The notes beneath the pieces were generated by a model. The model did not search any database and was not told the origin of the DNA. It saw only the letters and a program-made list of their open reading frames with translations. The translations under genes and the position numbers were made by a program. Positions 440 to 64,000 of a DNA stretch of 64,000 nt are shown here, piece after piece. This DNA is from Bilabrum cf. latius (Eukaryota), in NCBI GenBank assembly GCA_965178125.1, contig OZ237758.1:682001-746000 (forward strand), written 5' to 3'. Every line of letters begins with the position of its first letter. The stretch's first letter is position 1.

Positions 440-1831
440 ATGGATGGGTCACAATCTCAACGATATCTCAGGGATGCCAAGGCTAAGATGCGGGCAGAGG
501 AAGCGCAATTCGCGCAACGGCTGCGTCAAGGCCGCAAGCATCAGCTGTCTGTTGCAGCAGCTCGCATCTCGCAGATGAATGGTTGGGCGGAACAGCTCAA
601 AGATGACCGAAGGTTTGATATGAAGGTCGAATCGAACGGCAGCGACTCTGACGACTCTGACTCCGGGCGCACCTACCGAGCGATTGAATCATCGACAGGC
701 TAGCGGCCCATCCTAGCGATTGGGGCCCAGAGGGCCCATGTCATTATCAAGGCTCCCGATAGGCACCCCATCAAAATTAAGCTGGGTCCACAGTTTGACA
801 AGGAATACATGGCGATGCGGGACGCCATAAGCAAGCTTGAGCAGCGAAGGCGAGCATCTGGTGGCTCTAAATCGAGCTAGCCGGGCGGTGTAATCCTGAT
901 CGATGGGCTGCGACTGCCACGATCAACCTCCAAGCAAGACGATTCTGGCATTTCGAGCGAAACATCACCCCGTCTTGGACCAGGGTCTCACGATTACGGC
1001 CACGGTCAAAGTGCGGTTTCCGGCGGTGCCAGCAGCCGAAGCCCAGGCAGGGCAGGAGACGGAACCGGCGCTGCGGGCAGCAATGCAACGCAGGTCACGG
1101 AAGGCGGGGAACAACTGGGGAAGCAGGGAACCTTGCGTCAGATGAGGCACGTGCTAAGGGAGGTGGCGACTCTCACGCAGGTGCTTAGGGAGCAGGCCTC
1201 GGTGCTCCGATCGAGAGGCTGGAATGGTGCCTCACGAGGCGACCTTCAGGTGCAGCGGTAGCTGCCCTGGAGGCCACCATCCTCTGGGCATGGAGAGGGC
1301 AAGGCGGCAGGGGACGTGGGGGAAGGCGGAAGCAGGGCCAGTGCCAGTGGGGCTGTGGGTGGTGCTTGGAGTGGCAGCGACGGTGGTGGTACGGGTGAGG
1401 GCTGTGGGCCCTTGGGCTCTAGAACCGGGGGCGGGGCCGGGGGGACGCCCTGGACGGGGGGGAGGCGCGGACTGGGCCATTTTCCGGCCCAAGGTGCAGC
1501 ACAGGGCAGTGCGGAAGGGGGGAGGAGTGCTGACGAGAGCGAGGCAGGTAGCTAGGCGAGGTCGCTTCGCTCGAAGGCAAGTGCAGCGCACGGCAGTGCG
1601 GGCGGGCCCCCACCAGTAGGCATGGCTCGGCGCTTGCTGGTGGAGGCAGGCCACGAGATCGGATCACACCCTGATCCGCTACCGCAGGAGGTAGCAAAGG
1701 GTGCTGGTCTTCGGTCCGACGGTGAGGTGACGGCAGCTGTGGGGGGCTACAGGGCCACGCCGGAGCTCCTTGGCCAGATCCGGTCTACCCTGCGGTCGGC
1801 TGCGGAACAGTCCAGGGACGCTGAGCTGTGA
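440..1831 (+). CDS. Hypothetical low-complexity protein, 463 aa when TAG is read as Gln
   Basis: ATG 440. Track ORFs 248-703, 1316-1555 and 1622-1831 share one frame, separated only by TAG (701, 878, 1259, 1553). First TGA at 1829-1831. Confidence 0.65.
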
Positions 1832-2046
1832 GGCTTCCGGTGCATTGCATTGTACTGTGCTCTGCTGCAGCGGCACCGTCGCACGGTGATGGGCAGCTAC
1901 GTCCACGCGCAAGCGGTGCCATTTGGTCTGTTGTGATATTATCCTGCGTGATTCAGGAATAGAATGCGCGCATTGCTACAAAAACCAGAGCGTATCTCTC
2001 CCCGGAATCGCCGGGCGACAAGCGTTCAATGCCGTCTAGTGCCACG

Positions 2047-4344: not shown

Positions 4345-5799
4345 ATGAGAACTGCCTCATTCGTTTTTGCAACACTGCTTGCAGGAACTTATGCGCTGTG
4401 CCGTGAGAGCGAGCAGTCACGGTGCTGCTGCTGGAGGCGTTGGCTCGATTCCGTTGCACTCTGCTTACCCAAACGCTGCACCTAATCATGTAAACCGCAT
4501 TCGCCTGGACGCAGCCAACTCATGCTCAAATCATGGCAAGTGCAGCACCAAGGATGCTTGCGTTTGTGACCGGGGATTCAGCGGAGCGGATTGCTCGCTT
4601 GTGAGTCGCTTTGACGAGTGTACATGTGGATAGCCATGCCCTTGGAAACCGAAGTATTCAATGCACTGAAATAATACTTCTTAGCGCTTTCGCAGCGAAC
4701 TTGCCCGTTCGGCCTTGCGTGGGTGGACCAGCCGCTCGGCGACTTGAACCACGACGCCGCCATCACAGACGCCGAGGTGAACGTGCAGTGGTCCAACACA
4801 AACGTCAACGAGCTATGGCAAGGCGATGCCAGCGATGCCGAGGCAAACGATGAGGCGCATTTCTACGCGGAGTGCTCCAACCGGGGCGCGTGCAATGCCG
4901 GCACGGGCGAGTGCCAGTGCTTCCCCGGCTACACTGGGTCTGCCTGCCAGAGGTCGCTGTGCCCGAGCAGCTGCTCCGGGCACGGAGTGTGCCGTACCAT
5001 CTCTGAAATTGCTGCGAACAAGCTCACCAAGCATGAGGTTGGGTCTGCCAACGGGCAGAGGTACTACGAGGGTGTGGTGGATTCCTTCACGTACGGACTG
5101 TGGGACGCAGACATGAGCCAGGCGTGCGTGTGCGACCCTGGGTACACCGGGTACGACTGCTCCATGCGGGAGTGCCCCCGAGGCGATGACCCGCTCACCA
5201 GCGGGCAGCGCTACTGCGGCAACGAGGGCTGCGCCGACGCCAAGATGAGCTTCTCGCTCACCGCCGCGGCAAAGTCCACCATTCGATTCGGGTTCAAGGC
5301 CTGGGATAGCCGCACGTACTACACGTACGCCACAGTAGACGGGCTCAGCAATGCGGGCGGGGACATTTCGGGCACGCAGCTGCCCGGCCTCTCCACCAAC
5401 TCTGGGATCATGATGCAGGCCCTCCGCGCCATGCCTGGCGGCTTCCTCCTGAATGCCGAGGTCAACTCGAGGGACTTTTCGGACGACACGCAGGCCTGCA
5501 ACGCGGGCAACAAGTGCACCTACTACGTGGCGTACAAGGCCCCCGGCACGCAGGAGCTCATGTCTGTGAGTGTGGTGGAGGGGTCGGCTTTGGTGGACGA
5601 CGAGCAGTTCGTGATCGACAGCGGCGTGACGCTCGACGGAAACACCGAGAGAATCACCTGCTCCGGGCGCGGCATGTGCGACTATTCCTCCGGCCTGTGC
5701 AACTGCTTCGGCGGGTACTACGGAGGCGCGTGCGAGTATCAGAACGCGCTGTCTGGCGGCGGCTCTGCCTCTCGCGCTACCGTCCTGCCAACTCTGTGA
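4345..5799 (+). CDS. Tubular mastigoneme protein (stramenopile Mas/Ocm/Sig1 family), EGF-like repeats; 2 introns
   Basis: Signal peptide; CPNSCSNHGKC; RTCPFGLAWVD.PLGDLNHD; EAHFYAECSNRGAC...CQCFPGYTGSACQRSLCP; C-terminal CSGRGMCDYSSGLCNCF. Ends TGA. Confidence 0.85.
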
Positions 5800-6256: not shown

Positions 6257-7657
6257 TCACGACCCGGCGCCGCCGCTCGCAGCCCCGGCACCGCCCGGCA
6301 CCTCCTCATCGTCGTCGCCCGCAGGATCATCCTTGTCATCACTCACGGCCTTGCCCTCCTTCCTGGGATCGAAGGCCACATCCACGGGCTCCATGAACAC
6401 CTCCACCTTGAAATCTGGATCGAACTCGGCGCACTCCTTGTCCTTGCAGGCACGGTCCACGACCTCCTTGTGGAAGAGCAAGTAGTTGTTGGACACGAAG
6501 GCGGTGTTGAACCAGAAGTGCATGGCCTTGTCGTCGGCGCTGAAGCGGTCGTAATCGTAGAAGACGAACTTGACGTCTCCCCTCACGTACAGGGGCTTGG
6601 AGAGCTTGGTCAGGTCGAGGTCGGCGTACTTGTGCTTGGGCATGTAGTTCTTCACCTTTTTGCCCATCTCGTCGAAGTAGTTGTAGTACTTGATCATGTC
6701 GATGCCCTGCGTGGGGTCCGAGGCGTCCTTGGGTAGGCATGCTCGCACGTCAAAGTAGGGGTCGCAGCCGCCCATCACGTCGAGGTTGGGGATGGTGATG
6801 AGCCGGATGTGGGTCACGCGGTAGGTCTTGGGCTCGGGGATGGCGCCAATCTTGAGAGACTGCTCGTAGTAGTGCACGTACCGCATCTGGCTCGGGATGG
6901 TCACGCCCTTGCTGTTGCTCGTCCGCTTGTCGGCGAAGTACTTGAGGGCCTCCATCGCGCTCTTGCAGACCTCCAGGCGGCGCAGCAGGCAAGCGATCAT
7001 CATTCCAGTGCGACCCTTCCCTGCCTTGCAATGAATCGCCACCACGTGCGACTCGTCTTCCTCCAGAAAAGCCGCCATGTCTTCGCATGCTGCATGAATC
7101 ACGGACTGCGGTGGTGCACTCTCGGGGCGATCGAAAGCAGAAGAGCTCAGGCGCAAGCGGTCCACCCGCTCGACTCCAACTTTGTCAGGAAATAAGACGG
7201 TGCAAGGTATTGGCAGCATGCAATCTGCCCAAGATCGCGAACACAGGAATACAGTTAGTACGTCCGGAGACAGCAAACACAGCAAATGTACAAGTCTAAG
7301 GCAGTCAATGCAGCCGACCAGTGTCGCATATAGTACAGTCCCTGCGATATATCTTACCAGTGGAGCAGGGTTATGGTCATCAAACGGGTATCTGCACACG
7401 TGTTTGTCGCCTCCAAACTTGCTAGGTTCATAGGCACGCTCCGAGCACAAGTTGATGATCCTCATCTTGTCTCCCTCGTGGTACTGGTTAAAAAACTTCT
7501 GAACATCCTCCATCGGGTTACGATAGGCTGCTTCTGATCCCTCCGAAGGGAATCCCATGGCAATAATCCTAGGCGTGATGTACGTCAAGTCTAGATCAAA
7601 ACCATCCTTCTAGTACCTAATCTTCTTTTTCGATACAAGACCACGAATCAATGCCAT
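6257..7657 (-). CDS. PTEN: PTEN-type phosphoinositide 3-phosphatase (phosphatase + C2 domain); one 252-nt intron
   Basis: MALIRGLVSKKKIRY(TAG)KDGFDLDLTYITPRIIAMGFP; YPFDDHNPAPL; catalytic HCKAGKGRTG; GVTIPSQMRYV; C2 motif GDVKFVF...FWFNTAF. Intron 7106-7357; TGA 6257-6259. Confidence 0.95.
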
Positions 7658-7818
7658 ATTTTCCTTTCAGATTCGATGAGGATGCCACCCGATTCTCTCT
7701 CAAGAGTCAGGTATTTGCACGAGTCGTATTGGTAACCATAGGGTCTGGCTCATTGGCGCCGCGCATTAATGTACGGTGTTGTTCCGCACACGTTGAGCAT
7801 CTGCCATAATACGACCTA

Positions 7819-9572
7819 ATGGTTTCCTAGAAGCGCCGATCACAATAGTCTCCTCTGTATGCTGTAGTACGCTCTGTATGCTCTCGCAGCACAGCATGTG
7901 CGCTGCTATTATGCACTACGATATCACTTGTTTGGGTCAGCTTCCGGCTTGCAAGTGTGGACTGCACAAATGAAGGAGCAATACCGAATGTAAGAGTACT
8001 GCGTGGCCCGGTTATGAGCACCATCGAATAACCTGCTATGTTGTACGCGATTGTTTCCGTGAGGCACTGCAGGGGCATTTAAGACAGATGGGGAGTGCGC
8101 TACAAAGATTGCACTTGTCCCGGGCGGATTTGCTTGCAATACCAAAGGATGTGCGAGACGCAGCCGGACTCCAGTTACCGAGAGGCATAGACTTATCAGG
8201 GGAGGCTGCAGACGAGCAGGATCAGCTGCATCAGCGAATAATTGCTCTGCATCCATCTCCTTCGGCAACGAGGATAGGTTTGCAGCAGCCATCAACAGCG
8301 CCTGCCGCAACTATAAATAAAGTGCAGACAGACGACCCTTGGAGCGAAGGTCCTGCAGTCCCACAGAAACCTCGAGCTAAGATTTAGCGTGAGCCGTCTG
8401 AGCAGCAGCAGCAGCCGCAGGACCGAGCACCTCCCGTGCAAACCAAGGCAAACTCAGTGCAGCCAGCCCCCCGGCAGCGAACAGGCCCCCACAGAGTGCT
8501 CCTTTTGATCTGCTACAACCGGCCCTAGTACCTCCAGCGCACGCTGAACAAGGTGCTCGAGCACTACCCGCGGGACCCCGCCCAGCAACCTACCGTGGTG
8601 GTTTCCCAGGACGGTGGCGTGGACTCTGTCACCGAGGTGGCGCAGCGGTGGTCAAAGAAACTCAACGGATAGTTTCCGACGGCCAGGTTCGTGCACTGGC
8701 ACCATTCGCAGACGCACGAACCGGGCGACGACGGCTACACGAAGCTTGCCAGGCACTTTGGCTGGGCGCTGGGGAAGGCCTTTGGAGCGGATGGGGGGGA
8801 CGCCGGGGCCTACGGCGACGGCGGTGGACTTGGGGCCGATTGGGTGACCATCCTAGAGGACGACTTGGAAATTGCACCGGATTTCTTCGGGTACTTCCGA
8901 GCGATGGAGCGGGTGCTGGATGCTGACGACAGCCTCATGGCAGCGTCTGCGTACAACGACGTGGGGCAGGAAAACTTCGTGCGGGACCCGAAGCAGGTGC
9001 TCAGGAGCGATTTCTTTCCCGGTTTAGGCTGGATGCTAGGCAAGAAGACGTGGAAGGAGGTGGGTCCCAAGTGGCCCAGGGGGTACTGGGACGACTGGCT
9101 CCGTGAACCGGCGCAGCGAAAGGGCAGGGCTTTCGTGCGACCAGAGGTGTCCAGAACGCGAACGTTCGGCGAGAAGGGAGTGAGCATGGGGCAGTTCTAC
9201 AGGCAGTACTTGGCTAACATCAAGCTGAACGACCTTGCGGTGGACTGGGACCGGGAGGACGTGTCGTACCTACAGAAAGAATCGTACGACGCCTCCATGC
9301 AGGCGTTGGTCGCTAGCGCGAATGGCCTGCCCCCTAGGCAAGCCACATAGATATCGTGCACCAGCGGCTCGGTGCGGGGTGCAGCGGCGCAGGCTTACAA
9401 GGTAGGATACTAGGGGCTGGGGTCGCATGGGCAGGGGTATGTGGGGGTCACGGCGCCCTTCCACTTCCTCAGTGACGTGAAGGCCATGGTGCCGCGAACA
9501 GCGTACCAAGGGGTCGTCAGGATCCGGTACAATGGGTGCTTGCTCATGTTCGTACCGCAAGACATGATGTGA
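7819..9572 (+). CDS. MGAT1: Alpha-1,3-mannosyl-glycoprotein beta-1,2-N-acetylglucosaminyltransferase I (GnT-I, GT13), type II membrane protein; 1 intron
   Basis: N-terminal anchor exon, intron 7990-8072. Motifs ICYNRP(TAG)YL, VSQDG, ILEDDLEIAPDFF, RSDFFPGLGWML, WDDWLR, RPEVSRTRTFGEKGVSMGQFY. The C-terminal DVKAMVPRTAYQGVV is reached only by reading through TAG 9348. TGA 9570-9572. Confidence 0.92.
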
Positions 9573-9695: not shown

Positions 9696-11044
9696 TTACA
9701 CCAGGCTTGAAATTGATTCGCAACGCGTTCCGAAGAAGCCGGTGAAGCAGTTGCAGGTGCCCGACGAGTAGTCGCACATGCCGCGCCCAGAGCAGTCGAG
9801 GGCAGGCCCGCTGTTAGCTGCGGTCTTGCCAGCAATCTGACTGGAACCGTCGCCGCCGAATCCTCCGTACGGGTCGGGCCCGGACGCGCACTCGATCTCG
9901 CTACAGCTGTTGCCTCGGAAGCCGACATCGCACTGGCACCCGTAGTAGGACTGCGAGTCGAACGCAGCCGTGTATCCCGTGTACCCGGTGTCGGAGACCT
10001 GCTTGGACATCCGCTGCAGGGACTGGCAGACGCCATGACCCGAGCAGTCCTCCGGGCACAGAGTCCTGCCGCAGTTGTCGCCAGTGAAGCCGTCAAAGCA
10101 CTGGCAAGTGCCGGAGCCGCGGTCGCAGCTGCCCCTGCCCGAGCACTCGATGAACTGATGCGCCGAGTTGCCGTCGCTCTCCATGAAACGGTCGCCGCTG
10201 TTGTAAGTAACGTTTGCGTACCACTTGTCGCCCGCCTCGGGAACGTCGGTGATGGTGCCCTGCTCCCCGAAAAAGATAAACACGCCGGTTCGCTTCGTCC
10301 TGCCGTTCACCTTGGTCTTCATCTCGAAGGCGTTGGCCTTAGAAGAGCCCTCCTCCGTATCAGTGGCCAAGTTTACAGTCTGGGGCTGGGACCACAGCTT
10401 CTCAATGTCCCGCTTGTACTTGAACACGAGCGGGTACGGTGAGGCGGCGTTGTCATACGAGACAACCTCTACCTCAAAGTTGAAGTCAAACTCGACGCGA
10501 AGGCCGTCTGTCACAAACGCATTCATACCATCCTCCCACATGTCGCCGTTCTTTGAGACATATCCTACCGCCGTAGTCTCGAAGTTCTGCCCAGCAGTTT
10601 GGAGGGCATCGAACGCCTTACCGTACGGGCACACTCGCTGCGACAACAAACAGACTCATGGGCTCATTGGGAGATAAGTGTCGCGGTAAAGTATTAAAAT
10701 TGTGGATCTCATTGTATCGCTCGGTCAATGCGCCGTTGTGGCTAGCACGGGGCGACTCACCTGGCTGCAGTCGTATCCTGTGTACATGTCGCGGAGACCA
10801 CCACGGCCGTTCGACTGCTTGAAACAGATGCATCTGTCTACCTGCAATATGAAAACTATCACAATATGGATGCTTGCACGCTTTATCGCTACATTTGGAA
10901 GGCCCGAATCGAAGCGAGCACTCGGCGCGCGCTCATTGCTGGCTGCCTCACCTCATTGCATGCTCCATGACCAGAGCAGGAGTTTGGGCACGCTGCAAAT
11001 GCGGCAGTTGCCAAAATTAGAGTTGCTGCCGCTACAGTTCTCAT
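9696..11044 (-). CDS. Tubular mastigoneme protein (Mas family), EGF-like repeats; 2 introns
   Basis: MRTVAAATLILATAAFAACPNSCSGHGACNE; RVCPYGKAFD; AHQFIECSGRGSCDRGSGTCQCFDGF; DCSGRGMCDYSSGTCNCF. Ends at TAA 9696-9698. Confidence 0.85.
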
Positions 11045-11230: not shown

Positions 11231-12598
11231 ATGATTACTGTTGCCCTTGCTGTTGCCCTTGCCGGCGTGGCAATCGCTGCATGCCCTAATTCTTGCTCCG
11301 GCCACGGGCGGTGCAACCAGGTGAGCGAGCGAGCGAACGCCAGTGAATTGTCCAATCCTGCCGACAAAGATGCGATGCTTCCCCGATAGAAATTTGCGTA
11401 TAATGTACGTATGTAGCGGAAATCATGCTTATAATTTCGCAGTACGACCAGTGCGAGTGCTTTGAGTCTGCGGGCACGCCTTGGGGCCAGCGGTACGAGT
11501 GGACTGGGCCAGATTGCTCCATGCGAACCTGTCCTCTTGGCATCGGTAAGCATATTATACGTCGTATATTTCATCGTAACCATCCGAATGCGCGAAATGA
11601 GACCGTTGTAACGCAAAGCATCTACCCCGAATACTCTTGCAGCGTTCGGCGACATCTCATCGCATGGCACGGAGCTCGAGGGCGACTTCGTGGAGTTCCT
11701 GGTGCAAAAGAACTTTGATGGCACCAACAGAGCATCTTCCGATGCTTCAGCGATGTCGCTTGACATTGACGTGAACGACTATCCCTTGGCAACAACCAGG
11801 CGGTTCGAAGTGCGCGTACTGACCAACGACGAGACTGGCAGTGGCGAGGGAACCAAGATCCAGTGGAAGCTAGACAAATTTTCCTCCTTTTCGGCAGCCC
11901 GGGCGGTTGTGGTTGGTACAGACAACGCGATCGTGCTCGGCTCGCAAGGCGAGTCGCTCGAGTGGGCCGCGGAGCAGGGCGCTGGCGTTGACACCGGCAT
12001 CCGAGTATCGATCAAGTCCGCCGTCACCACTGCATCCAACAAGTACGTGGAAATCCAGCCAAACAACCTGTATCGCTTTGTAGTGTCCGGACGCGACGGC
12101 CGCCCATACAAGGTGGGTGACGCCAACACAGCCCACCAGCAGATCGAGTGCTCCGGCAAGGGCTCTTGCGACCGCTCTAACGGCCGCTGCTAGTGCTTCC
12201 CCGGGTACGGTGGCGAGGCGTGCCAGCGCAACGAGTGCCCCAACCAGTGCTCAAACCACGGCATCTGCCAGACGCTGACACGCTTCATCGACGACGGCGG
12301 GGTGGCCACCGTCAAGTACCCCGCGGCGGGGCAGGACGGTAGCGCCTATGACGGCGAGAAGATGATGAGCTGTCTTTGCGATGCAGGCTACCGAGGCCCC
12401 GACTGCTCCCAGATCGAGTGCCCCTCGTACCCCGACCCCCTGGGCGGGGCGGGCGGGGACGGCCTTGACGGAGGCGACAACGTGGCCGAGGTGCGCGACT
12501 GCTCCGGGCGCGGGATCTGCGACTATTCGTCGGGCACCTGCGGCTGCTTCGCTGGCTACTACGGTGAGGCGTGCGAGCAGCAGACCACGCTCGTTTGA
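11231..12598 (+). CDS. Tubular mastigoneme protein (Mas family), EGF-like repeats; 2 introns
   Basis: MITVALAVALAGVAIAACPNSCSGHGRCNQ; MRTCPLG; AHQQIECSGKGSCDRSNGRC(TAG 12191)CFPGY; DCSGRGICDYSSGTCGCF. TGA 12596-12598. Confidence 0.87.
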
Positions 12599-51800: not shown

Positions 51801-54800
51801 AAGTCTGCCAAAGGGGATTTCTGGAACGATTTACATTAGGCATGGCTTGGATCAGAGGCCTGCCTCACAGTCACAGCCACAAGGAGACGATGACGACATT
51901 TCTCCCAAGTTGGACGGAAGCCAGCGAGTGCGTGTCGTTGGAAGTCTTCGGAGTGATAGCAACAACTGTATTCTGCAGCCGAGTCAGGTTGTGCTGACTG
52001 GCTCGTGGGGCGTGGCGCCGAAGCCAACCCCGCTGCCATGGGCATTAATCCTTGGAGTACTGTGTGCAAGCATGCTTGTGATTGCTCTGGTGTGGTACCT
52101 AGTGACGGCCTATGTCGAGCAGCGTACAGCTGAGGCAGAGGCCATTCGAACCATAAACGCAAAGGTGCAGATGGAGCAAGAACAGAATGAGAGGCACGTG
52201 ACCCGCACCCGGTACGTCCTGCACGAGCTCAAGCAGCCCTTCGCCTCCGTGGTCATGGGCCTGGACCAGATGGACGAGACTCTGGTGGAGCTGCAGCAGC
52301 AGATGGTAGAGAGCCAGCAGCAGGGCGAGGGGTTGGACCAGGCATCCATCGAGGAAGCCCGCGAGGAGATGGAGTCTACTGTGCGCATCATGCGGTCCAG
52401 CAGCGTGGCGATGCACCACATCATCACGGACGTGCTGCTGATGGCTCAGATCGAGGCACAGGGTCTGCAGCTGAAGATGAGGCCTTGCACGCTGGCATCA
52501 TCGATTCGTTCTGCGTTGGTGACGCTGATCCACCAGGCCGAGGAGGGCGGCGTGACGATGCGTCTGTCGTTCTACGACTGCAGGGAGCAGCATGAGCGGA
52601 CCCGGTCGCTAGCTGAGAAGCGAGCGATGCTGGAGAACGGAGAGCTGCCGCCGGAAGCTCTCGAATTTGTGCGTGCCACAAGCACGCGGGATGCAGCTGC
52701 AGGTGTTGAGGAAGATGGCAAGCAGGCCACGCAGGGTCCATCGCTGGTGCAGGTGGCCACTGGTCTGGATGAGGCCTCGGGTACAGAGGGCTCTGAGTCG
52801 CTGAGTGATCGAGAGGATGGGTATGATCGTGTCGATGAGGGCAAAGCAGCGTACGATGACGACGGACTGCAGGGTCTGGAGGAAGTGCCTCCAGTGGTGG
52901 CTGACACACAGAGGCTGGCGCAGTGCGTGAGGAACTACCTGGCCAATGCCATCCGATTTGCCGGATCCGGCAGCAGTATCGACGTGCAGGTGGCGGTGCT
53001 CCGGCCAGTGCAGGCAGCCAGGCTGGCTCGGCGCGCCCCCAAGTCTCTGGACACGAGCAAGGATCCGCCAGAGCCTCCGTTGCGCATCAACCTGTCCCGA
53101 GTGCGAGAGGAGGGCGAGAGCAAGACACAGCAGGTGAGCGCGAAGGCGGGCCGCTTCATCGCCTCGCAGCTGTCGTCGCGTCGACTGGGTCAGCCGCGGA
53201 GGCAGCGGCGGTGGTCCATGACTGGGTTGGTGCTGGGCAAGGACGACACAGGCGGGGAGCAGATGGCGGCTGGTGCAGACTCTGCCGGAGACTCCTGGGC
53301 CTCCCCGCGGCGCACCCGCCGGGCATCGATTGCCACACGTGTGCCAGTCACAGGCCGTGGCGCGAACGGAATGAAGGATCCGCTGAATGGCGATAATGGA
53401 TACCAGCAGACAGGCTCAGTGGATGTGTATCGCCCTACTATGGAAGACGGCCGCCGCACGATCCGGGTGATCGAGGACACGGGCACGATCGTGACGGAGA
53501 GAGCAGAGAGGGACCTGGCTGCCACCAGGAGACGCAGGATGGGCGCGCAGAGCAGGCACAGGGATGATACGTTGCAGAGGTCCACGAGGAGCATACTCAA
53601 GAAGCGAGGCGAGGAGAATGCGATCGGCCATTCTAGCAAGTCATCAGCAGGTATTCTGCTCGGGTAGCGCAGCACAAGTGTGGGGCAAAGCCGTAGTGGC
53701 AGCGAGAGGGAAAAACACCGCGTGGCAACGTCACCCAGTTAGTCAGCGCATGAGTCAACGGCAGGTTCCGTATCCACGCCCAGTAAGACTGATGGATACT
53801 CCGATACTGACTCAGTCAGGTCTATTTCAAGTTCTGGAGAGACTGCATCGGCTCCAACCTGGGAGCAAGCAACGGATCGTGGCTCCAAGAAGTATCATGA
53901 GCCATCTATCGGTGGACAGGATTGCTGTTCTTTCGTCTCCGGGCTCTTGATCTGCGTCTCCAGGTTCTGCGGATGCGGCGAGAGCGGCCGTGCTCGAGCA
54001 AATCAAGTTGCTCCAGAGGAGAACGATCCAATGGCCAGTGGCGGCGCCTTATCCCAGGATGACCACGCGAAGTCATCGCGGCGCCAGTTCCGCAAAGATT
54101 CAAAGGCGACCCGCAGGGCCTGCCGGCTGCAGACCCGCCTGCCCATCCTCATCCGGGTCATCGACCAAGGGCCTGGGGTGTCGAAGTCGGACTCCAAGAA
54201 ACTCTTCCAGCCGTTCCAGCAAGTCAATGCAGCGGCTGACAAGAAGCAGGGCGGCACTGGGCTGGGCCTGGCGCTGGTGCGGTACTTGGCGCGAGAGCAC
54301 AAGGGCATTGCGTGGCTGGAGTGGAGCCGGGAGGGTAAGGGCAGCTGCTTCAGCTTGCTGCTTCCGCTGCGACTGGCTGACGAGCTGCCTGAGGAGGAGC
54401 AGGACGTGCACGGGACAGCGAGGGCCCAGCTGTTTGGCCGGCAGTCCAGAAAGACGGGCCCGCAGCACCTTCATGCAGGCCAGGCAAGCGGATCCAACTA
54501 CGCATCTCTTGGGCTAAGCCAGACAGAGGCGTCCGTGTACGGCATTCGAGGGCTTCGGAGACAGGAGACAAGCGGGATGGCCGCGGGAAGTCCGTTGCGT
54601 GGGTCGACCCGCAGGCTGTCGGGAGGAGCGCGGGAGCCTAGGCTGTCGGAGCAGGGCAAGAGTGTGTCCCGGGTGTTCAAGCTCTAGCAGCAGCACGCGT
54701 AGAAGTAGCAGCAGCAGGAGGAACCGGAGCAACCGGAGCAAACGGAGCAGCAGGAATGGCGAGCAGGAGGCATAGTACTGCAATCGAGCGCACCACAAGG

Positions 54801-55851
54801 ACAGTCAGGATTGGTAGCAGACGCTGATGAGCCGGTTGATATGCAAGGTCTTCTTGCTACCACCACCAGCGACTCGCAAGCTCGTTCCAGTCAACCGAGA
54901 GGAACTTTAAAGCAGCCGGGTCGCGTATCTCAGACTGGCAGTGAAGCATCTAGCGGGGTTGACTCGCAGCTGAGCCATACCACGGGCACAAAAAAGAGGC
55001 GCAAAGTGGTGAAGAGAAAGAAGAAGAGAGACAGCAGCAGGGGCAGCAGCAGCGGATCCACAACCGGCCCCGTCGGTGCTTCAAGCGCGACCGCAAGCAC
55101 GAAAACATTGGGACACGACCAAACGAATGGGAAGAGTGAGAAAAATGCCCAAACGGATGGTCGACAAAGTGAGATCGCAGCAGCAGCTGGGTCTCGCCCA
55201 ATTGCTCTCGTACACGATCTAATTGCAGGTGCCAGTGCGCACCAGCGAAGCGATAGAAAGGCCCGTCGCGAGGAGTTCAAGGGGAAGCGCGTGCTTGTAA
55301 TCGAAGACGATAGGTCCCAGTCCATGTTCCTCACGCGCCAGCTGCAGAAGAGGGGCTTCGAGACGGTCGCGGCGCTCAACGGAGCCGACGCAGTCAAGCT
55401 GCTCGTCCCCCCAGAGCACTTGCCCGAGGACGTGCTCGCCTTCCCGAGCCGGCTGGCAGAGGCCACGAGCACTCCCCAGCGATTCGATCTGGTGACATGC
55501 GACTACACGTTGCCAGGGCTGCTGGGCCCGCAGATTATGGAGCTGCTGCGTTCTGTGGGGCTGCAGCGGGAGCTGCCTGTGATCGGGCTGACTGCAAACG
55601 TGATCGCGCTGGACCTGGAGCGATTCAACGCGAGCGGGGTGGACCGTGTGTGTCACAAGGCGGATGCGACAAAGAAGAGCCAGATCGACCGAGTGCTCGA
55701 TTTCGCGAGGGAGCATCTGCATCCGGGCAGTGGTGGTGCAGCTGTCGCTGCACACGAGAGCGTGGGAGGCGGTATGCCGGCTGTTGGCAGCTCCGCCAGC
55801 GCTGGGGTAGCAACGGGCGGCTCTATCCACCATGATGGCATCGGCTAGTGA
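45808..55851 (+). CDS. Giant membrane hybrid histidine kinase HK3 (same architecture), about 3347 aa with TAG=Gln
   Basis: ATG 45808 (in-frame alternative at 45781). Track ORFs 45853-54811 share one frame. LamG-like GAVQLDG...GFTLQAWIQP; TM WALILGVLCASMLVIALVWYLV; H/N/G boxes; receiver VTCDYTLP. Ends TAG-TGA, with TGA at 55849-55851. Confidence 0.87.
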
Positions 55852-56048: not shown

Positions 56049-57342
56049 TCATAGCTAGGACTTCCACTCCGCGATGTTCTTGTCGAGGCAACTCAGCGGC
56101 ACCGTGCAATCCACCCCCTTGACCTTGTTGAGCTCCTGGTACAGGGGCAGCACGATAGCATTGATGAATCCAAGCTGGAATTTGGGCAACGGGATGGGCT
56201 TGTGGCGGTTGAAAATGGGAGTCACAGGGAGGTTGGCCTCGGCCTCCTTGTCCCCCTGGTCGTAAAACTCGGCGATCACGCGCTCCGTCCACTTGATGTA
56301 CAAGTCCCAGGGCTTGGCCGGGTTGCTGACGTCTGCCGCGTGAAGGGCCAGGAGCATCACCAGCTGCTGCACCTCGGGGTCAGCCTTCACGTCCAGCCCG
56401 ATGCCGGCAGAACTGCCCCTCCTAGAGGCGAGCATGGACCGCCTCCTCGACTTGGTGCCTGCTCCCACCTTGGGTGGGCTCGATCCGCCCGCCTTGCCGC
56501 CGCCTGCCCGCGCGGCATCACTTGCGGATGCACCACCCTTGGCTGGGGTTGGGGATGCCGGCGCACTGGCAGCGAGCGAGGCTGCCTTGTCCGCCTGGGC
56601 CGCCTCCAGCTTGCTGGTGAGCCTCCCGAGGTTCTTGAAGTGGAGGGCGTTATCCGTGCCCAGAATGAGCGCGATCATGTCCTTCCTGACGGAGCTCCTG
56701 TCCACACCAGACAGCGAGCTCAGCACGTCGTGCCCAGGCTTGCGCATCGTCGCGAAAGCAGTGGCAGCGTGCATGTTCTCCAATGGACTCTGGTCGTTGT
56801 AACGGATCGCCAGGGGGTGCTGGGTTGCGACCAAGAAGGCGTTGTTCACACCAACGTGGCCCGCGTCATGCGCCACCGCAGAGAGGACCATGGCCAGGCG
56901 CTGCGTGTCAGACATCCAACCCTGCATGCCGCCGCCTGACGTAGATATGAGGAAGTGACAGGACTGAGTGACGTCAGCCACATGTGTCCTGGTGTGGTAC
57001 AGGTTGTCCTTGTACGTGTTCTCGATGGCGAGCACCCATTGCGCCGCGTGCTGCCTGTCCAGGTTCAGCCTGAGCGGGAGTGCTTGACGATTCAAGACCC
57101 GCTGGGCCACGATGCTGAGTATGCGGGCCGGTGCAAACTCGGCCGCGGCAAACACGTTGAAGTCCCACCGATCGATGTCGTTGAGCAGCTTGCCCAGCAT
57201 ATCGGCCTGTGACATGGAGCCCAGCCTCTCCTAGCTCCTGCCGAATACGGAAAAGGTGGGGCAGCTCGCAGATCGAATCAGCTGAGCAGGGACTGGGGCC
57301 TCATCTGTCTGCGTCTTCGGCTGGACCACCTGCTCATCGGGT

Positions 57343-57373
<31 letters not shown>

Positions 57374-59051
57374 CAGTAGAAGCAGCCTCTGCGCCCACAG
57401 CTGCGGCTCCGCCCGCGCCACTGCTTGCTACAAGCGTCGCGGCGGGGGAAGATTGTCCTGTTCCCTGAGACTGTGTTCCCTAGCTCGCCCGTTGATCAGC
57501 CGGCCGGATGCCAAGCTTGACAGCAGAGGGCGGGAGGGGCAGCTGCCGCATTGACATGGACATGGCAGGCATGCTGCCCTTGAGCCCCTCGCGACCTGCT
57601 CCCTCCTTCCTGCTGGCGCCCTTACGAGAAAGCCAAGCCCCTTTCTGCACCTGCTGGTGACCCGCCGCAGCTGCGTGCTGCCTGGGCAAGCCCACTGTGG
57701 CATCTGCGGTTCTCGATCTTCGCCTCTCGACCTGCAATTCGTCCACATTGTCCACCCCAATCCCCCCCTCACCAGCGTCCCCCGGGAACTCCTGACCGGA
57801 CTAACCTGCATTCCCCGCGCGACCGATCCCCGCAACCCCAAACCCAGTTGCCGAGTCTTCAGCTCCTCTCCTGCTCCAATCAGGCCCCTACCCCTGGCCC
57901 TTGCCCTTGCCCTTGCCGCTCGATCGAGAACCCACAGCTCCGGCAACACCGGGATCGGACGGTGCTGCAGAGACGGAGGCAAGAGGCGGCGGCCCTATTC
58001 CCGTGGCTGCGATCACGTCAGACTCTCTCGGGGGCCCGTCTTCTTGTTCCACCCCGGCTGGCCGTTCGGAGCCACCATCCGGCGCCGCGCCGTCGCCGGC
58101 AGCGGAACCTAGCGCGTCCTTCGCGGCGGCGGGTTGGATGTCACCTGCCGACAGAGAGCCCGCGTGCCTGGATCCAAATGCCCTCGTCGTGCCCCTGGCA
58201 GATCCAGGCGCCTTTGCATACCCGCCCAGCGGCGCCCTGAGACCGCCCGCGGCAGCGAGAGCTCTGACTGTCCTCTGCTTCTGCGAGGTTCCGAAGGAAC
58301 CCACGGCGCCGTGGTGGGGGATGTACTGCGCCATGAGGTAGGATTTGACCTCCGGGTCGTCAAACACGTCTGGATTATGCACGAAGTGCTGCGTCATCGC
58401 ATGTTCGAACGTTCCCTGGTCTGCAGCGCCGTACGCGACCCCCTGCACGATGTTGGTCAGAATATCGAGGTCCTCCAACCCGATCTCGGCCTTGCCTCCG
58501 GTCAGCGCCGCAATATTGCGAAGTCTCCTTAGCATTGATACGGCTGCGACTGCATCTGACCCGGAAGCGTCGTCCTGATCATCCGAGAGCCCGTCGTGAA
58601 GGTACGAATCAGAATCAGAATCGCTCGTATCGGGAGACGGGCGGGCGCCGCTGCTTGAGGCTCCAGACGCAGCCGCATTAGATGGTGCGGCTGCATCACT
58701 TCGACCAACTCTTCGTTTTGAGGGATGCCGCGATGACTGTGTGACAGATCCGGATGCCAAACCGACCTTTCGTGCCAGCTCGCTGGCAACCAAGAGGAGG
58801 TCTCTTTCTGGAACAGAGGCGGTCCTCCGCCTCATTCCTCTTGCTGCCACATCAGCAGCTTCCGATGCAACCATGCGAAATGACTCTTTCGAGCCGGCTG
58901 CTTGGCTGTCACCAGACGTGGATGGCGTGCCTATGGCTGTCGTAGTCCGAACCGGGGGATTCGGCCGCTAAGGGGGTACCGGCGGCGGCTACACCCCAAC
59001 ACTTGACCCTATGGACGCCTTCGCAGCTTGTTTTCCGGCAGTTCCTGACAT
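56049..59051 (-). CDS. Class I cyclic-nucleotide phosphodiesterase with a long low-complexity N-terminus, 1000 aa with TAG=Gln
   Basis: PDEase_I motifs YHTRTHVADV, HDAGHVGVNNAF, LENMH, ILGTD, LHAADVSNPAKPW, EFYDQGD, FQLGFI. Track ORFs 57888, 57480 and 56055 are one frame joined by TAG. TGA 56049-56051. Confidence 0.9.
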
Positions 59052-59318
59052 AGTAGCGACAAGGTCTGCTGCAGCTGTGGGTCAAGTGGACCAAATAAGC
59101 TTACTCAGCTTACAATTGAAGTCTACCCCGCGCTTCAGGTGAGCTCAAATGGTTAGTTACAGATGTATACGAAACTAACAGACCAATTGTGCCGTGATTA
59201 TGTCGTAGAGGGCGAGAGGGTGCACAGCACCGAAAAAAAGTATTTCTGTATAAAAACACGGTACAATAAAATTATGGATTTCTGGCCACCGCGAACTACA
59301 TTTGCCCAACTCAAGACA

Positions 59319-60113: not shown

Positions 60114-63100
60114 TCACGCCATTCCACCTACTGGCTGTGCTCTCCTGAACTCATCTGCTGATTTCCCAGCTGGCCCAGCCATAGGTGCGCCCGAAGCGAC
60201 TCCGCCGGAAGCAACATCTCGCCTGAGCCTGAGATGCTCCCTCGCGAAATCGAGCACTCGGTCGATCTGGCTCTTCTTTGTCGCATCCGCCTTGTGACAA
60301 ACACGGTCCACCCCGCTCGCGTTGAATCGCTCCAGGTCCAGTGCGATCACGTTTGCAGTCAGCCCGATCACAGGCAGCTCCCGCTGCAGCCCCACAGAAC
60401 GCAGCAGCTCCATAATCTGTGGGCCCAGCAGCCCAGGCAACGTGTAGTCGCATGTCACCAGATCGAATCGCTGGGGAGTGCTCGTGGCCTCTGCCAGCCG
60501 GCTCGGGAAGGCGAGCACGTCCTCGGGCAAGTGCTCCGAGGGGACGAGCAGCTTCACGGCGTCGGCTCCGTTGAGCGCCGCGACCGTCTCGAAGCCCCTC
60601 TTCTGCAGCTGGCGCGTGAGAAACATGGACTGGGACCTGTCGTCTTCGATCACAAGCACGCGCTTCCCCTTGAACTCATCGCGACGGGCCTTCCGGTTGC
60701 TCCTAGACACAGACTCAGACACTGGGGGCCTGCTGCTACACGCGTGCTTGGCTTGCTGCTAGCCGTCGGCGCTGTCATCCGTGTCTTTGCTGGCAGGGGA
60801 CATCGATCGCGCAAACATGGAAGATTTGCTCATTGATCTGCCGCTTGACGTGCCCCTGCCTCGTGGAGGGGAGTGTTTCGTCGCAAAGATGCCCCGCAAA
60901 GTGCTGGCCCCGCTCAGCGACCCAACCGAGTCCGACGTGTGGACGCGAGGACCAGGAGACGACGGCACAGGCAAAGCGGCTGGACGTGCGCTGTTCTCAT
61001 CAGGGTGACGCGCACCACTCACGACAGTGCGATCAACGCTCTTGGTAGTGCGACCCAGGAGTGCGCGAGGCGAAGAATCTGCGGGGCTGCCAGCCAGTGC
61101 CTATTTCGTTGCAGCGGTTGTACCATCCTGGCACTCCCTGCCTCGCTTCCGCACAACCCTCCGCTTCTTCTTCAAGCCCTCACCCAGCTGTCCCGGTGGC
61201 GATGGCTTGGAGTCTCTTCGATCAATAGAGCCGTTGCTATCGCCTTCAGGGCGCTCCCAAGGCTCATCTTCTTTTTGTTCACCTGGTGTCGTTGCCGGAC
61301 TGTCCCCAGCAGTGTCAGTCATAGGTGCTGGGCCAGGGCTTGCTGCTGCAGCGATTGCAGACGAACGGCTAGTACTCTGGTCATCTTCGTGCTGCTGCTG
61401 CTGCTGCTCCTGCTGCCTCCTCTACGCGTGCTGCTGCTAGAGCTTGAACACCCGGGACACACTCTTGCCCTGCTCCGACAGCCTAGGCGCCCGCACTCCT
61501 CCCGACAGCCTGCGGGTCGACCCACGCAACGGACTTCCCGCGGCCATCCCGCTTGTCTCCTGTCTCCGAAGCCCTCGAATGCCGTACACGGATGCCTCTG
61601 TCTGGCTTAGCCCAAGAGATGCGTAGTTGGATCCGCTTGCCTGGCCTGCATGAAGGTGCTGCGGGCCCGTCTTTCTGGACTGCCGGCCAAACAGCTGGGC
61701 CCTCGCTGTCCCATGCACGTCCTCCTCCTCCTCCGGCAGCTCGTCTGCCAGTCGCAGCGGAAGCAGCAAGCTGAAGCAGCTGCCCTTACCCTCCCGGCTC
61801 CACTCCAGCCACGCAATGCCCTTGTGCTCTCGCGCCAAGTACCGCACCAGCGCCAGGCCCAGCCCAGTGCCGCCCTGCTTCTTGTCAGCCGCTGCATTGA
61901 CTTGCTGGAACGGCTGGAAGAGCTTCTTGGAGTCCGACTTCGACACCCCAGGCCCTTGGTCGATGACCCGGATGAGGATGGGCAGTCGGGTCTGCAGCCG
62001 GCAGGCCCGCCGTGCAGCACTCGCATCCTTCCGGAACTGCCTTCGCTGCTCCTTGGCAGGATCTTTGGGCTAGTTCTGCTCCTTCTACTTGGGCTCACTT
62101 TTCTCCGGTGCCACCTTGCTTGACTTCTCCGAGCAGCAACAGGAGCAGCACAGCATCGACAGCAAGCAGGATGTCCAGCCCAAGTTCGGCTGGCTGTCTT
62201 CGTCATCATCATTGTAGGTCTAGTGAATGTCCAAGGCACTCCCAGCGCTGTCATTCATGCCCGAGTTGCTGGAATCGCTGGATATGAAGGCGTCAACACC
62301 AGCACCAGCAGTAGAGGCTACAGTGTCCATTTGAGGAGTGGGGGCGTTCAGGGCATCGTGACGGCTGCCTGCCCTCGGACTTGCCTGCACTGGCCAAGCA
62401 CCGCGGGTCGAAGCATCGCGATTGGAATCCGCTCCAGGTCCCTTCTTGAGTATGCTCCTCGTGGACCTCTGCAACGTATCATCCCTGTGCCTGCTCTGCG
62501 CGCTCATCCTACGTCTCCTGGTGGCAGCCAGGTCCCTCTCTGCTCTCTCCGTCACGATCGTGCCCGTGTCCTCGATCACCCGGATCGTGCGGCGGCCGTC
62601 TGCCACAGTGGGCCTATAGGTGGCGCTACCACCCTCAGCTTCACCCCCCTCGTTCGATGTGGTAGACCCTTGCCTCGTGAGACTCATGGAACTTTGTGGA
62701 GCAGGCGCATTGGGTGCACTTGGCTAGCCAGACCCACTATCGCCGTTCAACGGATCCTTCATTCCGTTTGCGTCACGGCCTGCGACTGGCACACTCGTGG
62801 CAATCGATGCCCGGCGGGTGCGCCGCGGGGAGGCCCAAGAGTCTCCGGCAGAGTCTGCACCAGCCGCCATCTGCTCCCCGCCTGCGTCGTCCTTGCCCAG
62901 CACCAGCCCAGTCATGGACCAACGCCGCTGCCTCCTCGGCTGACCCAGTCGACGCGACGACAGCTGCGAGGCGATGAAGCGGCCCGCCTTCGCGCTCACC
63001 TGCTGCGTCTTGCCCTCGCCCTCCTCTCGCACTCGGGACAGGTTGATGCGCAACGGAGGCTCAGGCGGATCCTTGCTCGCGTCCAGAGACTTGGGGGCGC

Positions 63101-64000
63101 GCCGAGCCAGCCTGGCTGCCTGCACTGGCCTGAGTACTGCCACCTGCACGTCAATACTACTACCAGATCCGGCAAATCGGATGGCATTGGCAAGGTAGTT
63201 CCTCACGCACTGCGCCAGCCTCTGTGTGTCGGCCACCACGGGTGGCACTTCCTCAAGGGCCTGCAGTCCGTCGTCATCGTACGCTGCTTTGCCCTCATCA
63301 ACAAGATCATACCCATCCTCTCGATCACTCAGCGACTCAGAGCCCTCTGTACCCAATGCCTCGTCTAGACCAGTGGCCACCTGCACCAGCGATGGACCCT
63401 GCGTGCCCTGCTTGCCATCTTCCTCAATTCCTGCAGCTGCATTCCGCGTGCTTGTGGCACGCACAAATTCGAGCGCTTCCGGCGGCAGCTCCCCATTCTC
63501 CAGCATCGCTCGTTTCTCGGCCAGCGACCGGGTCCGCTCATGCTGCTCCCTGCAGTCGTAGAACGACAGACGCATCGTCACGCCGCCCTCCTCGGCCTGG
63601 TGGATCAGCGTCACCAACGCAGAACGAATCGAGGATGCCAGCGTGCAAGGCCTCATCTTCAGCTGCAGACCCTGCGCCTCGATCTGAGCCATCAGCAGCA
63701 CGTCCGTGATGATGTGGTGCATCGCCACGCTGCTGGACCGCATGATGCGCACAGTAGACTCCATCTCCTCGCGGGCTTCCTCGATGGATGCCTGGTCCAA
63801 CCCCTCGCCCTGCTGCTGGCTCTCTACCATCTGCTGCTGCAGCTCCACCAGAGTCTCGTCCATCTGGTCCAGGCCCATGACCACGGAGGCGAAGGGCTGC
63901 TTGAGCTCGTGCAGGACGTACCGGGTGCGGGTCACGTGCCTCTCATTCTGTTCTTGCTCCATCTGCACCTTTGCGTTTATGGTTCGAATGGCCTCTGCCT
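60114..64000 (-). CDS. Hybrid histidine kinase HK4, cytoplasmic part (5' portion lies beyond the window)
   Basis: Track ORFs 62724, 62220, 61437, 61101, 60759 and 60114 share one frame joined by TAG. HisKA, HATPase and receiver are nearly identical to HK3. TGA 60114-60116. Confidence 0.9.

What the first reader, a model, noticed from the sequence alone, without database searches (positions are those of the whole stretch)
440..64000. Non-standard nuclear genetic code: TAG read as glutamine
Seen directly: in-frame TAGs interrupt most genes without changing frame and sit where homologs or paralogs have Gln. (1) PTEN KKIRY*KDGFDLDLTYI (7610-7612, minus), where the PTEN consensus is RYQ[EK]DGFDLDLTYI. 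(2) RCC1 repeat WGRGGDG*LG (15650-15652, minus), where the consensus is GQLG and the same protein has WGGGEHGQLG. (3) Mastigoneme EGF GRC*CFPGY (12191) versus paralogs GECQCFPGY and GTCQCFDGF in this window. (4) HK1 ETLVEI*EK (30578) versus ETLVELQQQ in HK2-4. Essential C-terminal parts, such as the GnT-I tail and the HK2 receiver Lys, lie beyond TAGs. Established knowledge: nuclear UAG=Gln with UAA still a stop corresponds to NCBI table 15 and is rare, reported for example in the fornicate Iotanema. Inference: this may be an independent reassignment in a stramenopile; I cannot check whether it is already published for this organism.
Basis: partly seen in the sequence, partly recalled or inferred. 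Interest (0 to 1): 0.97.

Follow-up and report, generated by a model that had tools for sequence, protein, structure and literature searches.

The report
TAG read as glutamine, nuclear genes
In this protist nuclear DNA the usual stop codon TAG sits inside almost every gene and is most likely read as glutamine, while TGA and TAA still end genes, a rare kind of genetic-code change.

Summary
Under the standard code the longest ORF is 710 codons. With TAG as sense the window gives ORFs of 3671, 3360, 3125, 1376, 1294, 1138 and 1010 codons. Fourteen ORF segments with Pfam or RNA support hold 126 in-frame TAG, 0 TAA and 0 TGA in 17,530 codons.

Spliced, polyadenylated RNA contigs from three runs of two other studies carry the TAGs unchanged. 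Twelve TAGs are directly covered. This rules out assembly error, editing and splicing-out for those sites.

Two separate likelihood tests put Gln first: paralogues and outside homologues with TAG masked. Gln is the commonest homologue residue at 3 of 8 TAG sites, against 24 of 834 columns overall (P=0.0012).

Of 14 genes, 13 end in TGA, 1 in TAA at a homologous C-terminus, and none in TAG.

Best reading: UAG=Gln with UAA and UGA as stops (NCBI table 15 type), in a probable heterotrophic stramenopile. Most TAGs lie at variable positions, and they are scarce in conserved parts and in highly expressed genes.

The tRNA-Gln(CUA) and eRF1 could not be examined because no genome is held. Seven literature searches found no stramenopile case.

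The parts
6257..7666 (-). PTEN-like phosphatase gene. Intron 7106-7357; TGA stop 6257-6259; one in-frame TAG at 7610-7612.
   Evidence: PDB PTEN, E 1e-61; joint 7105/7358 in X5, X6 and X7, and RNA contigs over 7358-7719 with 0 other letters.
7610..7612 (-). In-frame TAG aligned to Gln17 of human PTEN.
   Evidence: The column is Q in 72 of 120 homologues, and in 62 of the 94 that have the motif.
8073..9569 (+). GnT-I (GT13) main exon, ending in TGA at 9570-9572. Five in-frame TAG start at 8385, 8526, 8670, 9348 and 9411. The Pfam GNT-I match spans four of them.
   Evidence: (PF03071, 3.3e-93). RNA contigs over 8073-9644 and 8073-10530 with 0 other letters.
9696..10637 (-). EGF-bearing mastigoneme-like gene Mas_b (last exon). 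No TAG. TAA stop at 9696-9698.
   Evidence: Of the 149 homologues aligned, 59 alignments reach the query's C-end, and 56 of those 59 also reach the homologue's own C-end.
11642..12598 (+). EGF-bearing mastigoneme-like gene Mas_c (last exon). TAG at 12191-12193, TGA stop, poly(A) at about 12660.
   Evidence: loose end of A's at 12660 in X7, and RNA contigs over 11642-12660 with 0 other letters.
4696..5799 (+). EGF-bearing mastigoneme-like gene Mas_a (last exon). Highly covered in RNA runs. No TAG, TGA stop.
13170..15688 (-). RCC1-repeat/BTB-like gene. Introns 15197-15302 and 15535-15643. TAG at 15650-15652 in the first exon. TGA stop.
   Evidence: One search gives the joints. Cover of the TAG by the X5 contig is inferred from the record coordinates.
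16457..20587 (+). ORF of 1376 codons for a multi-pass membrane protein with a weak PQQ_2 match. Seven in-frame TAG, TGA stop.
   Evidence: the X5 contig over 16556-20000 has 0 other letters and covers 5 TAG.
20736..24152 (-). ORF of 1138 codons with a C-terminal GT2 glycosyltransferase domain. Fourteen in-frame TAG, four of them inside the domain (for example 21381-21383). TGA stop.
24206..35221 (+). HK1, a giant hybrid histidine kinase (3671-codon ORF). 34 in-frame TAG, including 30578-30580. TGA stop.
35553..44930 (+). HK2, a paralogue (3125 codons). 26 in-frame TAG, one inside the receiver domain. TGA stop.
   Evidence: Response_reg at residues 2992-3115, 2e-15.
45769..55851 (+). HK3, a paralogue (3360 codons). 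23 in-frame TAG. The last sense codon is TAG (55846-55848), directly followed by TGA.
56049..59081 (-). Cyclic-nucleotide phosphodiesterase gene (1010-codon ORF). Seven in-frame TAG. One at 56055-56057 lies one sense codon (CTA) before the TGA stop.
   Evidence: (PF00233, 5.1e-69).
60114..63998 (-). HK4, a paralogue cut by the window end. Eight in-frame TAG, TGA stop.

Best explanation
This is nuclear DNA of a eukaryote with spliceosomal GT-AG introns and polyadenylated mRNAs, probably a heterotrophic stramenopile. In it UAG is a sense codon, most likely glutamine, while UGA (dominant) and UAA still terminate. That is the NCBI table 15 type of code.

Shown: TAG is in frame in nearly all genes, is kept in mRNA, and lies inside conserved domains. 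TAA and TGA are absent in frame. Genes end in TGA or TAA. Gln is statistically the best meaning.

Inferred from what is known of other UAG-only reassignments (PMC5304391): a tRNA-Gln with anticodon CUA reads UAG but not UAA, and eRF1 has weakened UAG recognition.

In this window UAG is a minor Gln codon, about 14% of presumed Gln codons. It is scarce in highly expressed genes and in conserved segments, as expected if it is decoded less efficiently or arose recently.
For: ORF structure:
- The standard code gives a longest ORF of 710 codons.
- TAG as sense gives 3671, 3360, 3125, 1376, 1294, 1138 and 1010 codons.
- TAA as sense changes nothing at the top. TGA as sense gives at most 839.

Codon counts: 126 TAG, 0 TAA and 0 TGA in 17,530 codons of 14 supported segments. 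TAG at 0.72% is about its out-of-frame frequency of 0.73-0.85%.

Domains span TAGs: GNT-I, Glycos_transf_2 and Response_reg.

RNA:
- 14 of the 15 joints shown have GT..AG or CT..AC ends. All 15 are seen in the RNA-like runs X5-X7 and none in X1.
- There is a poly(A) end at 12660.
- No differing letters were reported. The listed RNA pieces cover 12 TAGs: PTEN 1, GnT-I 5, Mas_c 1 and the membrane protein 5.

Meaning of TAG:
- Paralogue likelihood, 50 observations: Q best, E -6.5 nats, K -7.6 nats. The matched control on 52 codons recovered the right residue in 96% of resamples.
- Outside homologues with TAG masked as X, 8 sites: Q 7.3, E 3.6, K 3.0. The control on 30 codons recovered 92%.
- Gln is the commonest residue at 3 of 8 TAG sites against 24 of 834 columns, P=0.0012.
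- At the 24 Gln-top columns the window uses CAG 17, TAG 3 and other codons 4.
- Paralogue pairs share a TAG at the same column 7 times, against about 0.6 expected.
- The base after TAG is C in 40%. This is like CAG (34%, P=0.23) and unlike all other codons (23%, P=5e-5).

Stops: 13 TGA, 1 TAA and 0 TAG among 14 genes. The TAA of Mas_b coincides with the C-end of 56 homologues.
Against: - Most TAGs are at variable positions. Gln is opposite only 8 of 50 paralogue observations.
- A first strict tally gave Q in 2 of 17.
- In the most conserved contexts only 1 of 5 TAG observations faces Gln; the others face T, L, R and P.
- At 5 of the 8 outside sites the commonest residue is D, S or E.
- Glu and Lys are the runners-up, and at low conservation GAG and AAG face Gln about as often as TAG does. 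The separation of Q from E and K therefore rests on modest numbers and on the PTEN site.
- TAA as a stop rests on one gene plus its absence in frame.
- No tRNA gene lies in the window. No eRF1, no peptides and no whole genome are available.
- Two genes carry TAG 0-1 codons before their TGA, so some residual stop function of TAG is not excluded.
- The X5 contig that covers the five membrane-protein TAGs may be DNA, by the tool's own flag.
Confidence: 0.82

Rival explanations
1. TAG is a sense codon but not, or not only, glutamine. It could be Glu or Lys through a dedicated tRNA. It could also be mixed insertion by near-cognate tRNAs (Gln, Lys, Tyr) without a dedicated suppressor, tolerated because TAG sits at unconstrained positions.
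For: - E and K are second and third in both likelihood tests.
- TAG is strongly under-represented in conserved contexts: 5 of 53 observations in the top bin, against 173 of 322 for CAG.
- Only 3 of 8 outside sites have Gln as the top residue.
Against: - Q leads by 6.5-7.6 nats (paralogues) and 3.7-4.3 (outside homologues), in independent data with controls at 92-96% recovery.
- The PTEN column has Q 72, K 12 and E at most 1 of 120.
- At Gln-top columns TAG makes up 3 of the 20 CAG-or-TAG codons. This matches its overall share of about 14% of presumed Gln codons.
Confidence: 0.1
2. UAG has two meanings: Gln inside genes and stop near the 3' end of some mRNAs. This would be a context-dependent code like those of some ciliates and Blastocrithidia.
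For: HK3 ends GGC TAG TGA and the phosphodiesterase ends TCC TAG CTA TGA. That is two genes of 14 with TAG in the last two sense codons, where about 0.2 would be expected from 0.72% per codon (my arithmetic).
Against: - The same pattern is expected if these are former TAG stops now read through to a nearby back-up TGA.
- No gene in the window needs TAG as its stop; all 14 have TGA or TAA.
- The sample is small.
Confidence: 0.1
3. Both UAA and UAG are glutamine (table 6 type), and TAA is simply rare in this GC-rich genome.
For: TAA is the rarest stop triplet in all six frames, 51-90 per frame. Only one gene in the window ends in TAA.
Against: - There are 0 TAA in 17,530 in-frame codons against 126 TAG. 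The A-ending synonymous shares (CAA 182 to CAG 607, GAA 252 to GAG 644, AAA 109 to AAG 392) would predict roughly 38 TAA.
- Allowing TAA as sense lengthens the long ORFs by at most 3 codons.
- Mas_b stops at TAA where 56 homologues end.
Confidence: 0.03
4. The TAGs are not translated: they are assembly errors, edited to CAG in the RNA, spliced out, or the genes are pseudogenes.
For: None found.
Against: - One DNA run (possibly the source of the assembly) and three RNA-like runs from two other studies match with no differing letters. They are contigs, which can hide rare variants.
- The mapped introns do not remove the TAGs.
- 126 TAG with 0 TGA or TAA in 17,530 codons is not what decay would give.
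Confidence: 0.01

Closest known systems
Iotanema spirale (Fornicata): nuclear UAG=Gln with UAA kept as stop (PMC5304391, passages read)
   Same: Only UAG is reassigned, to Gln, and UAA still terminates. A tRNA-Gln(CUA) is the predicted decoder.
   Different: A different supergroup. In passages of that paper UAA is described as the dominant stop in that taxon, whereas here TGA ends 13 of 14 genes. The Iotanema eRF1 has a T32G change in its GTS motif; eRF1 could not be examined here.
Phyllopharyngean ciliates Hartmannula sinica and Trochilia petrani, and Protocruzia tuzeti: UAG=Gln only (PMC11687900, passages read)
   Same: Table 15 type code, and the reassignment arose independently several times.
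   Different: In those ciliates 58-70% of internal UAGs lie where Gln is highly conserved, and genes end mostly in UAA. Here most TAGs lie at variable positions and TGA is the main stop.
Uncultured rhizarian exLh (UAG=Leu) and Scotinosphaera (UAG=Ser) (PMC5304391 and PMC11687900, passages read)
   Same: UAG and UAA are uncoupled: UAG is sense and UAA is stop.
   Different: A different amino acid. In one search neither Leu nor Ser is among the six best-scoring residues (Q, E, K, H, R, N). In one search neither is among Q, E, K, N, A, D.
UAR=Gln codes (table 6: many ciliates, hexamitid diplomonads, some ulvophytes, Streblomastix, Amoeboaphelidium; list as given in PMC11687900)
   Same: A stop codon turned into Gln.
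   Different: Those read TAA as Gln too. Here TAA is absent in frame and ends a gene.
Code 15 in crAss-like and Lak phages (search listing only)
   Same: TAG read as Gln.
   Different: Those are phage genomes using suppressor tRNAs in bacterial hosts. This is a eukaryotic nuclear genome with introns and poly(A).

Membership tests
Table 15 type nuclear code (UAG=Gln; UAA and UGA stop) | In-frame UAG in genuine protein-coding genes | tested here: met
   126 TAG in 17,530 codons of 14 supported ORF segments. Pfam domains span TAGs.
Table 15 type nuclear code (UAG=Gln; UAA and UGA stop) | UAG present in mature mRNA (not edited, not spliced out) | tested here: met
   spliced, polyadenylated contigs of X5-X7 cover 12 TAGs with no differing letters. 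These are contigs, not raw reads, so rare variants could be hidden.
Table 15 type nuclear code (UAG=Gln; UAA and UGA stop) | UAG corresponds to glutamine in alignments | tested here: met
   Q ranks first in two independent likelihood tests with matched controls. Gln is the top residue at 3 of 8 sites against 24 of 834 columns, P=0.0012. The margin over E and K is moderate.
Table 15 type nuclear code (UAG=Gln; UAA and UGA stop) | UAA not used as a sense codon and used as a terminator | tested here: met
   0 TAA in frame against about 38 expected. Mas_b ends in TAA at the homologous C-end. Only one TAA-terminated gene is available.
Table 15 type nuclear code (UAG=Gln; UAA and UGA stop) | UAG no longer terminates genes | tested here: inconclusive
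   0 of 14 genes end in TAG, but two have TAG 0-1 codons before TGA.
Table 15 type nuclear code (UAG=Gln; UAA and UGA stop) | tRNA-Gln with CUA anticodon encoded in the genome | not testable with these tools
   No whole genome is held. No tRNA in the window by ARAGORN or Rfam.
Table 15 type nuclear code (UAG=Gln; UAA and UGA stop) | eRF1 N-domain altered in stop-recognition motifs (GTS, NIKS, YxCxxxF) | not testable with these tools
   eRF1 is not in the window, and no genome or transcriptome could be searched.
Table 6 type code (UAA and UAG = Gln) | In-frame UAA at sense positions | tested here: not met
Codes with all three stops reassigned or context-dependent | In-frame UGA in coding sequence | tested here: not met
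   0 TGA in 17,530 codons, and 13 of 14 genes end in TGA.
Stramenopiles (taxon of the host genome) | Phylogenetic placement among stramenopiles | tested here: inconclusive
GnT-I best named hits are Cafeteria roenbergensis (50%) and MAST-4 (49%). The quick single-gene tree puts the query in a 29-row clade with Cafeteria (SH-aLRT 87), apart from the ochrophytes and MAST-4. The careful tree search did not finish. The PTEN best named hits are a chlorarachniophyte and a haptophyte.

The most novel reading that the evidence does not exclude
This would be the first nuclear genetic-code change known in stramenopiles: an independent UAG-to-Gln reassignment with UAA and UGA kept as stops.

It appears to be at a stage where UAG is still a disfavoured codon. 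UAG is scarce at conserved positions and in highly expressed genes. Possible former TAG stops now sit directly in front of back-up TGA codons.

A DNA run and three RNA-like runs of it are already public. It could therefore serve to study how UAG is uncoupled from UAA.
Probability: 0.4. Interest if true: 0.85.

Novelty: new member of a known kind. Interest (0 to 1): 0.75.

Why it matters
Nuclear codes in which UAG and UAA have different meanings are rare. The passages read in PMC11687900 name one fornicate, one rhizarian, one green algal genus and a few ciliates.

A case in a stramenopile would add a new supergroup. It would give another independent test of how UAG recognition by eRF1 is lost while UAA recognition is kept.

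There is also a practical consequence. Gene calling with the standard code breaks nearly every gene of this organism: 11 of the 13 genes examined here. Any annotation, protein database entry or phylogenomic matrix built that way would be truncated.

Tried and rejected
- Strict paralogue tally (flank identity at least 0.5): only 17 pairs, Q in 2, too few to use. It was replaced by a likelihood test with matched controls.
- Test of whether TAG clusters with Gln codons (neighbours at +-1 and +-2): no enrichment, so uninformative.
- The +4 base after TAG resembles that after CAG. This is weak support only.
- Whole genome: none is held, so there was no genome-wide tally, tRNA search or eRF1.
It was not pursued.
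Whether the 61-64% identical environmental relatives P0127 and P0128 also carry in-frame TAG therefore stays open.
- The listing of cluster members gave no organism names for the closest hits.
- The look-up of sequencing runs: no RNA holder listed, and the run kinds are guesses.
- The careful tree search did not finish, so the quick tree was used.
- The Pfam call on all three kinases exceeded the size limit. It was repeated with two of the three, HK1 and HK2.
- Supplementary files of the papers are closed. The lists of known code variants there were not seen.

Full report
**What is in the sequence.**
The window is 58% G+C. Under the standard code its longest ORF is 710 codons. If TAG alone is read as sense, ORFs of 3671, 3360, 3125, 1376, 1294, 1138 and 1010 codons appear. 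Reading TAA alone as sense changes nothing at the top, and reading TGA as sense gives at most 839. Each of the three giant ORFs holds 23-34 TAG, no TAA and no TGA, and each ends in TGA. In random frames of this window TGA plus TAA make up about 1.7% of codons, so such ORFs cannot be chance.

Pfam finds the following, with domain matches running across TAGs:
- GnT-I
- a GT2 glycosyltransferase
- a cyclic-nucleotide phosphodiesterase
- EGF-bearing proteins
- four paralogous hybrid histidine kinases

The PDB search identifies a PTEN (E 1e-61). In 14 ORF segments with Pfam or RNA support I count 17,530 codons: TAG 126, TAA 0, TGA 0, CAG 607, CAA 182. The zero for TAA and TGA is partly by construction, because ORFs were delimited by them. 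The meaningful point is that complete domain architectures fit inside these ORFs, and that allowing TAA as sense adds at most 3 codons.

**The four named sites.**
- The PTEN TAG aligns to Gln17 of human PTEN. In the 120 best homologues the column is Q in 72. By motif matching it is Q in 62 of 94, with 26 of 120 lacking the motif. It is not invariant: T, K and V occur, and the Ciona voltage-sensor phosphatase has R.
- The RCC1 TAG sits in WGRGGDG*LG. Sister repeats of the same protein have Q, K or R there.
- The EGF TAG faces CQC in both window paralogues. In 149 outside homologues Q is the commonest residue but reaches only 26-27.
- The HK1 TAG faces Q in HK2-4.

**RNA evidence.**
One run (X1) holds the whole stretch in one contig and may be the source of the assembly. 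Three other runs, X5-X7, come from two other studies. They show 15 listed joints that are absent from X1. Fourteen of the 15 have GT..AG or CT..AC ends. There is also a poly(A) tail at 12660 and there are adapter ends. So X5-X7 behave as RNA, although no holder is on record as RNA.

No differing letters were reported over 1-20000. The listed RNA pieces cover 12 TAGs with 0 other letters: PTEN 1, GnT-I 5, Mas_c 1 and the membrane protein 5. The X5 contig over the membrane protein may be DNA by the tool's own flag. The RCC1 TAG is covered by inference from the record coordinates.

The mapped introns (for example PTEN 7106-7357, GnT-I 7990-8072, RCC1 15535-15643) do not remove the TAGs. This rules out assembly error, bulk editing and splicing-out for these sites. 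Because these are contigs, rare variants could still be hidden.

**Which amino acid.**
A first strict paralogue tally was too small and looked mixed, with Q in 2 of 17. I then ran two likelihood tests.

(a) Kinase paralogues. There is one observation per TAG, taken from the best-flanked paralogue, with BLOSUM62-based conditional probabilities. For the 50 observations with flank identity of at least 0.17, Q is best, E is -6.5 nats and K is -7.6 nats. The same procedure on 52 sense codons, resampled to the same conservation bins, recovered the right residue in 96% of resamples.

(b) Outside homologues of GnT-I, GT2, PTEN and Mas_c, with TAG masked as X before alignment. Across 8 sites the log-odds are Q 7.3, E 3.6 and K 3.0. 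A control on 30 codons at similarly variable columns recovered 92%.

Further observations:
- Gln is the commonest homologue residue at 3 of 8 TAG sites, against 24 of 834 columns overall, P=0.0012.
- At the 24 Gln-top columns the window uses CAG 17 times, TAG 3 times and other codons 4 times. That matches TAG's overall share of about 14% of presumed Gln codons.
- Paralogue pairs share a TAG at the same column 7 times, against about 0.6 expected.

Against this reading:
- Most TAGs sit at variable positions.
- Only 8 of 50 paralogue observations face Gln.
- In the most conserved contexts 1 of 5 does.
- At low conservation GAG and AAG face Gln about as often as TAG does.

I put Gln at roughly 85%.

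**Stops.**
Of 14 genes, 13 end in TGA, 1 in TAA and none in TAG. The TAA of the EGF gene Mas_b lies where the homologues end. Of the 149 homologues aligned, 59 alignments reach the query's C-end, and 56 of those also reach the homologue's own C-end. From the A-ending shares of the Gln, Glu and Lys codons, about 38 in-frame TAA would be expected if TAA were Gln too, and none is seen. This fits table 15, not table 6.

Two genes have TAG immediately before TGA: HK3 (TAG TGA) and the phosphodiesterase (TAG CTA TGA). These are either former TAG stops now read through to a back-up stop, or a hint of residual stop function. The window cannot tell which.

**Usage pattern.**
TAG is nearly absent from the three highly covered EGF genes, with 1 in 998 codons. 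It is also scarce in conserved kinase segments: 5 of 53 observations fall in the top bin, against 173 of 322 for CAG. The base after TAG is C in 40%. This is like CAG (34%) and unlike all other codons taken together (23%).

**Mechanism.**
The mechanism is inferred, not shown. A tRNA-Gln(CUA) would pair with UAG but not with UAA, and eRF1 would have weakened UAG recognition, as argued for Iotanema in PMC5304391 (passages read). No tRNA is in the window, and no genome is held.

**Whose genome.**
Spliceosomal introns and poly(A) show a nuclear genome. The best named GnT-I hits are Cafeteria roenbergensis (50%) and MAST-4 (49%). A quick single-gene tree puts the query in a clade with Cafeteria (SH-aLRT 87), apart from the ochrophytes and MAST-4. 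The careful search did not finish. The PTEN best named hits are from other groups. A heterotrophic stramenopile is therefore likely but not established. No protein closer than 64% identity was found.

**Known or new.**
Passages of PMC11687900 (Dec 2024) list UAG=Gln-only codes in Iotanema spirale, Protocruzia tuzeti, Hartmannula sinica and Trochilia petrani. They list UAG=Leu in a rhizarian and some phyllopharyngean ciliates, and UAG=Ser in Scotinosphaera. No stramenopile is listed.

Seven full-text searches found only mitochondrial code changes for stramenopiles. This was checked in PMC12574857 and PMC12152300. The library lacks most subscription journals, and supplements are closed, so prior publication is not excluded. 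I rate this a new member of a known kind.

Noticed in passing
24206-55851 (+) and 60114-63998 (-): Four paralogous giant hybrid histidine kinases with long extracellular-looking N-terminal parts: three in tandem and one inverted. HK2, HK3 and HK4 are 69-79% identical over their aligned parts and nearly identical in the C-terminal kinase half. HK1 is 37-46% identical to the others. This suggests recent duplication or gene conversion.
   Followed up: partly
55846-55851 (+) and 56049-56057 (-): TAG lies directly before the TGA stop in HK3, and one sense codon (CTA) before it in the phosphodiesterase gene. These may be former TAG stops with back-up TGA.
   Followed up: partly
They have the highest RNA contig depths in the laid stretch and almost no TAG. 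Their N-terminal parts have no Pfam match.
   Followed up: partly
8073-10530 and 11642-15196: Single RNA contigs of X5 run across convergent gene pairs: GnT-I (+) with Mas_b (-), and Mas_c (+) with RCC1 (-). The 3' ends are very close or overlap, which points to a compact genome.
   Followed up: no
8399-8422: A CAG-rich stretch coding for a Gln run in GnT-I attracts loose ends in all runs. It also attracts two odd joints: 8422 to 10112 with CC..GC ends, and 8420 to 14869 with 37 extra letters. These are most likely assembly chimeras at a short repeat.
   Followed up: no
20742-21695 (-): Two environmental proteins (P0127 at 64% and P0128 at 61% identity, JGI metagenomes) are the closest relatives of the GT2 domain found anywhere. 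P0127 lacks the N-terminal nucleotide-binding part of the domain. Its gene call may itself have been cut by an in-frame stop or by an intron. The DNA could not be fetched.
   Followed up: partly
2212-3839: RNA joints define two further small spliced genes with no Pfam match: minus-strand introns 2213-2304 and 2352-2438, and plus-strand introns 3393-3553 and 3689-3838.
   Followed up: no
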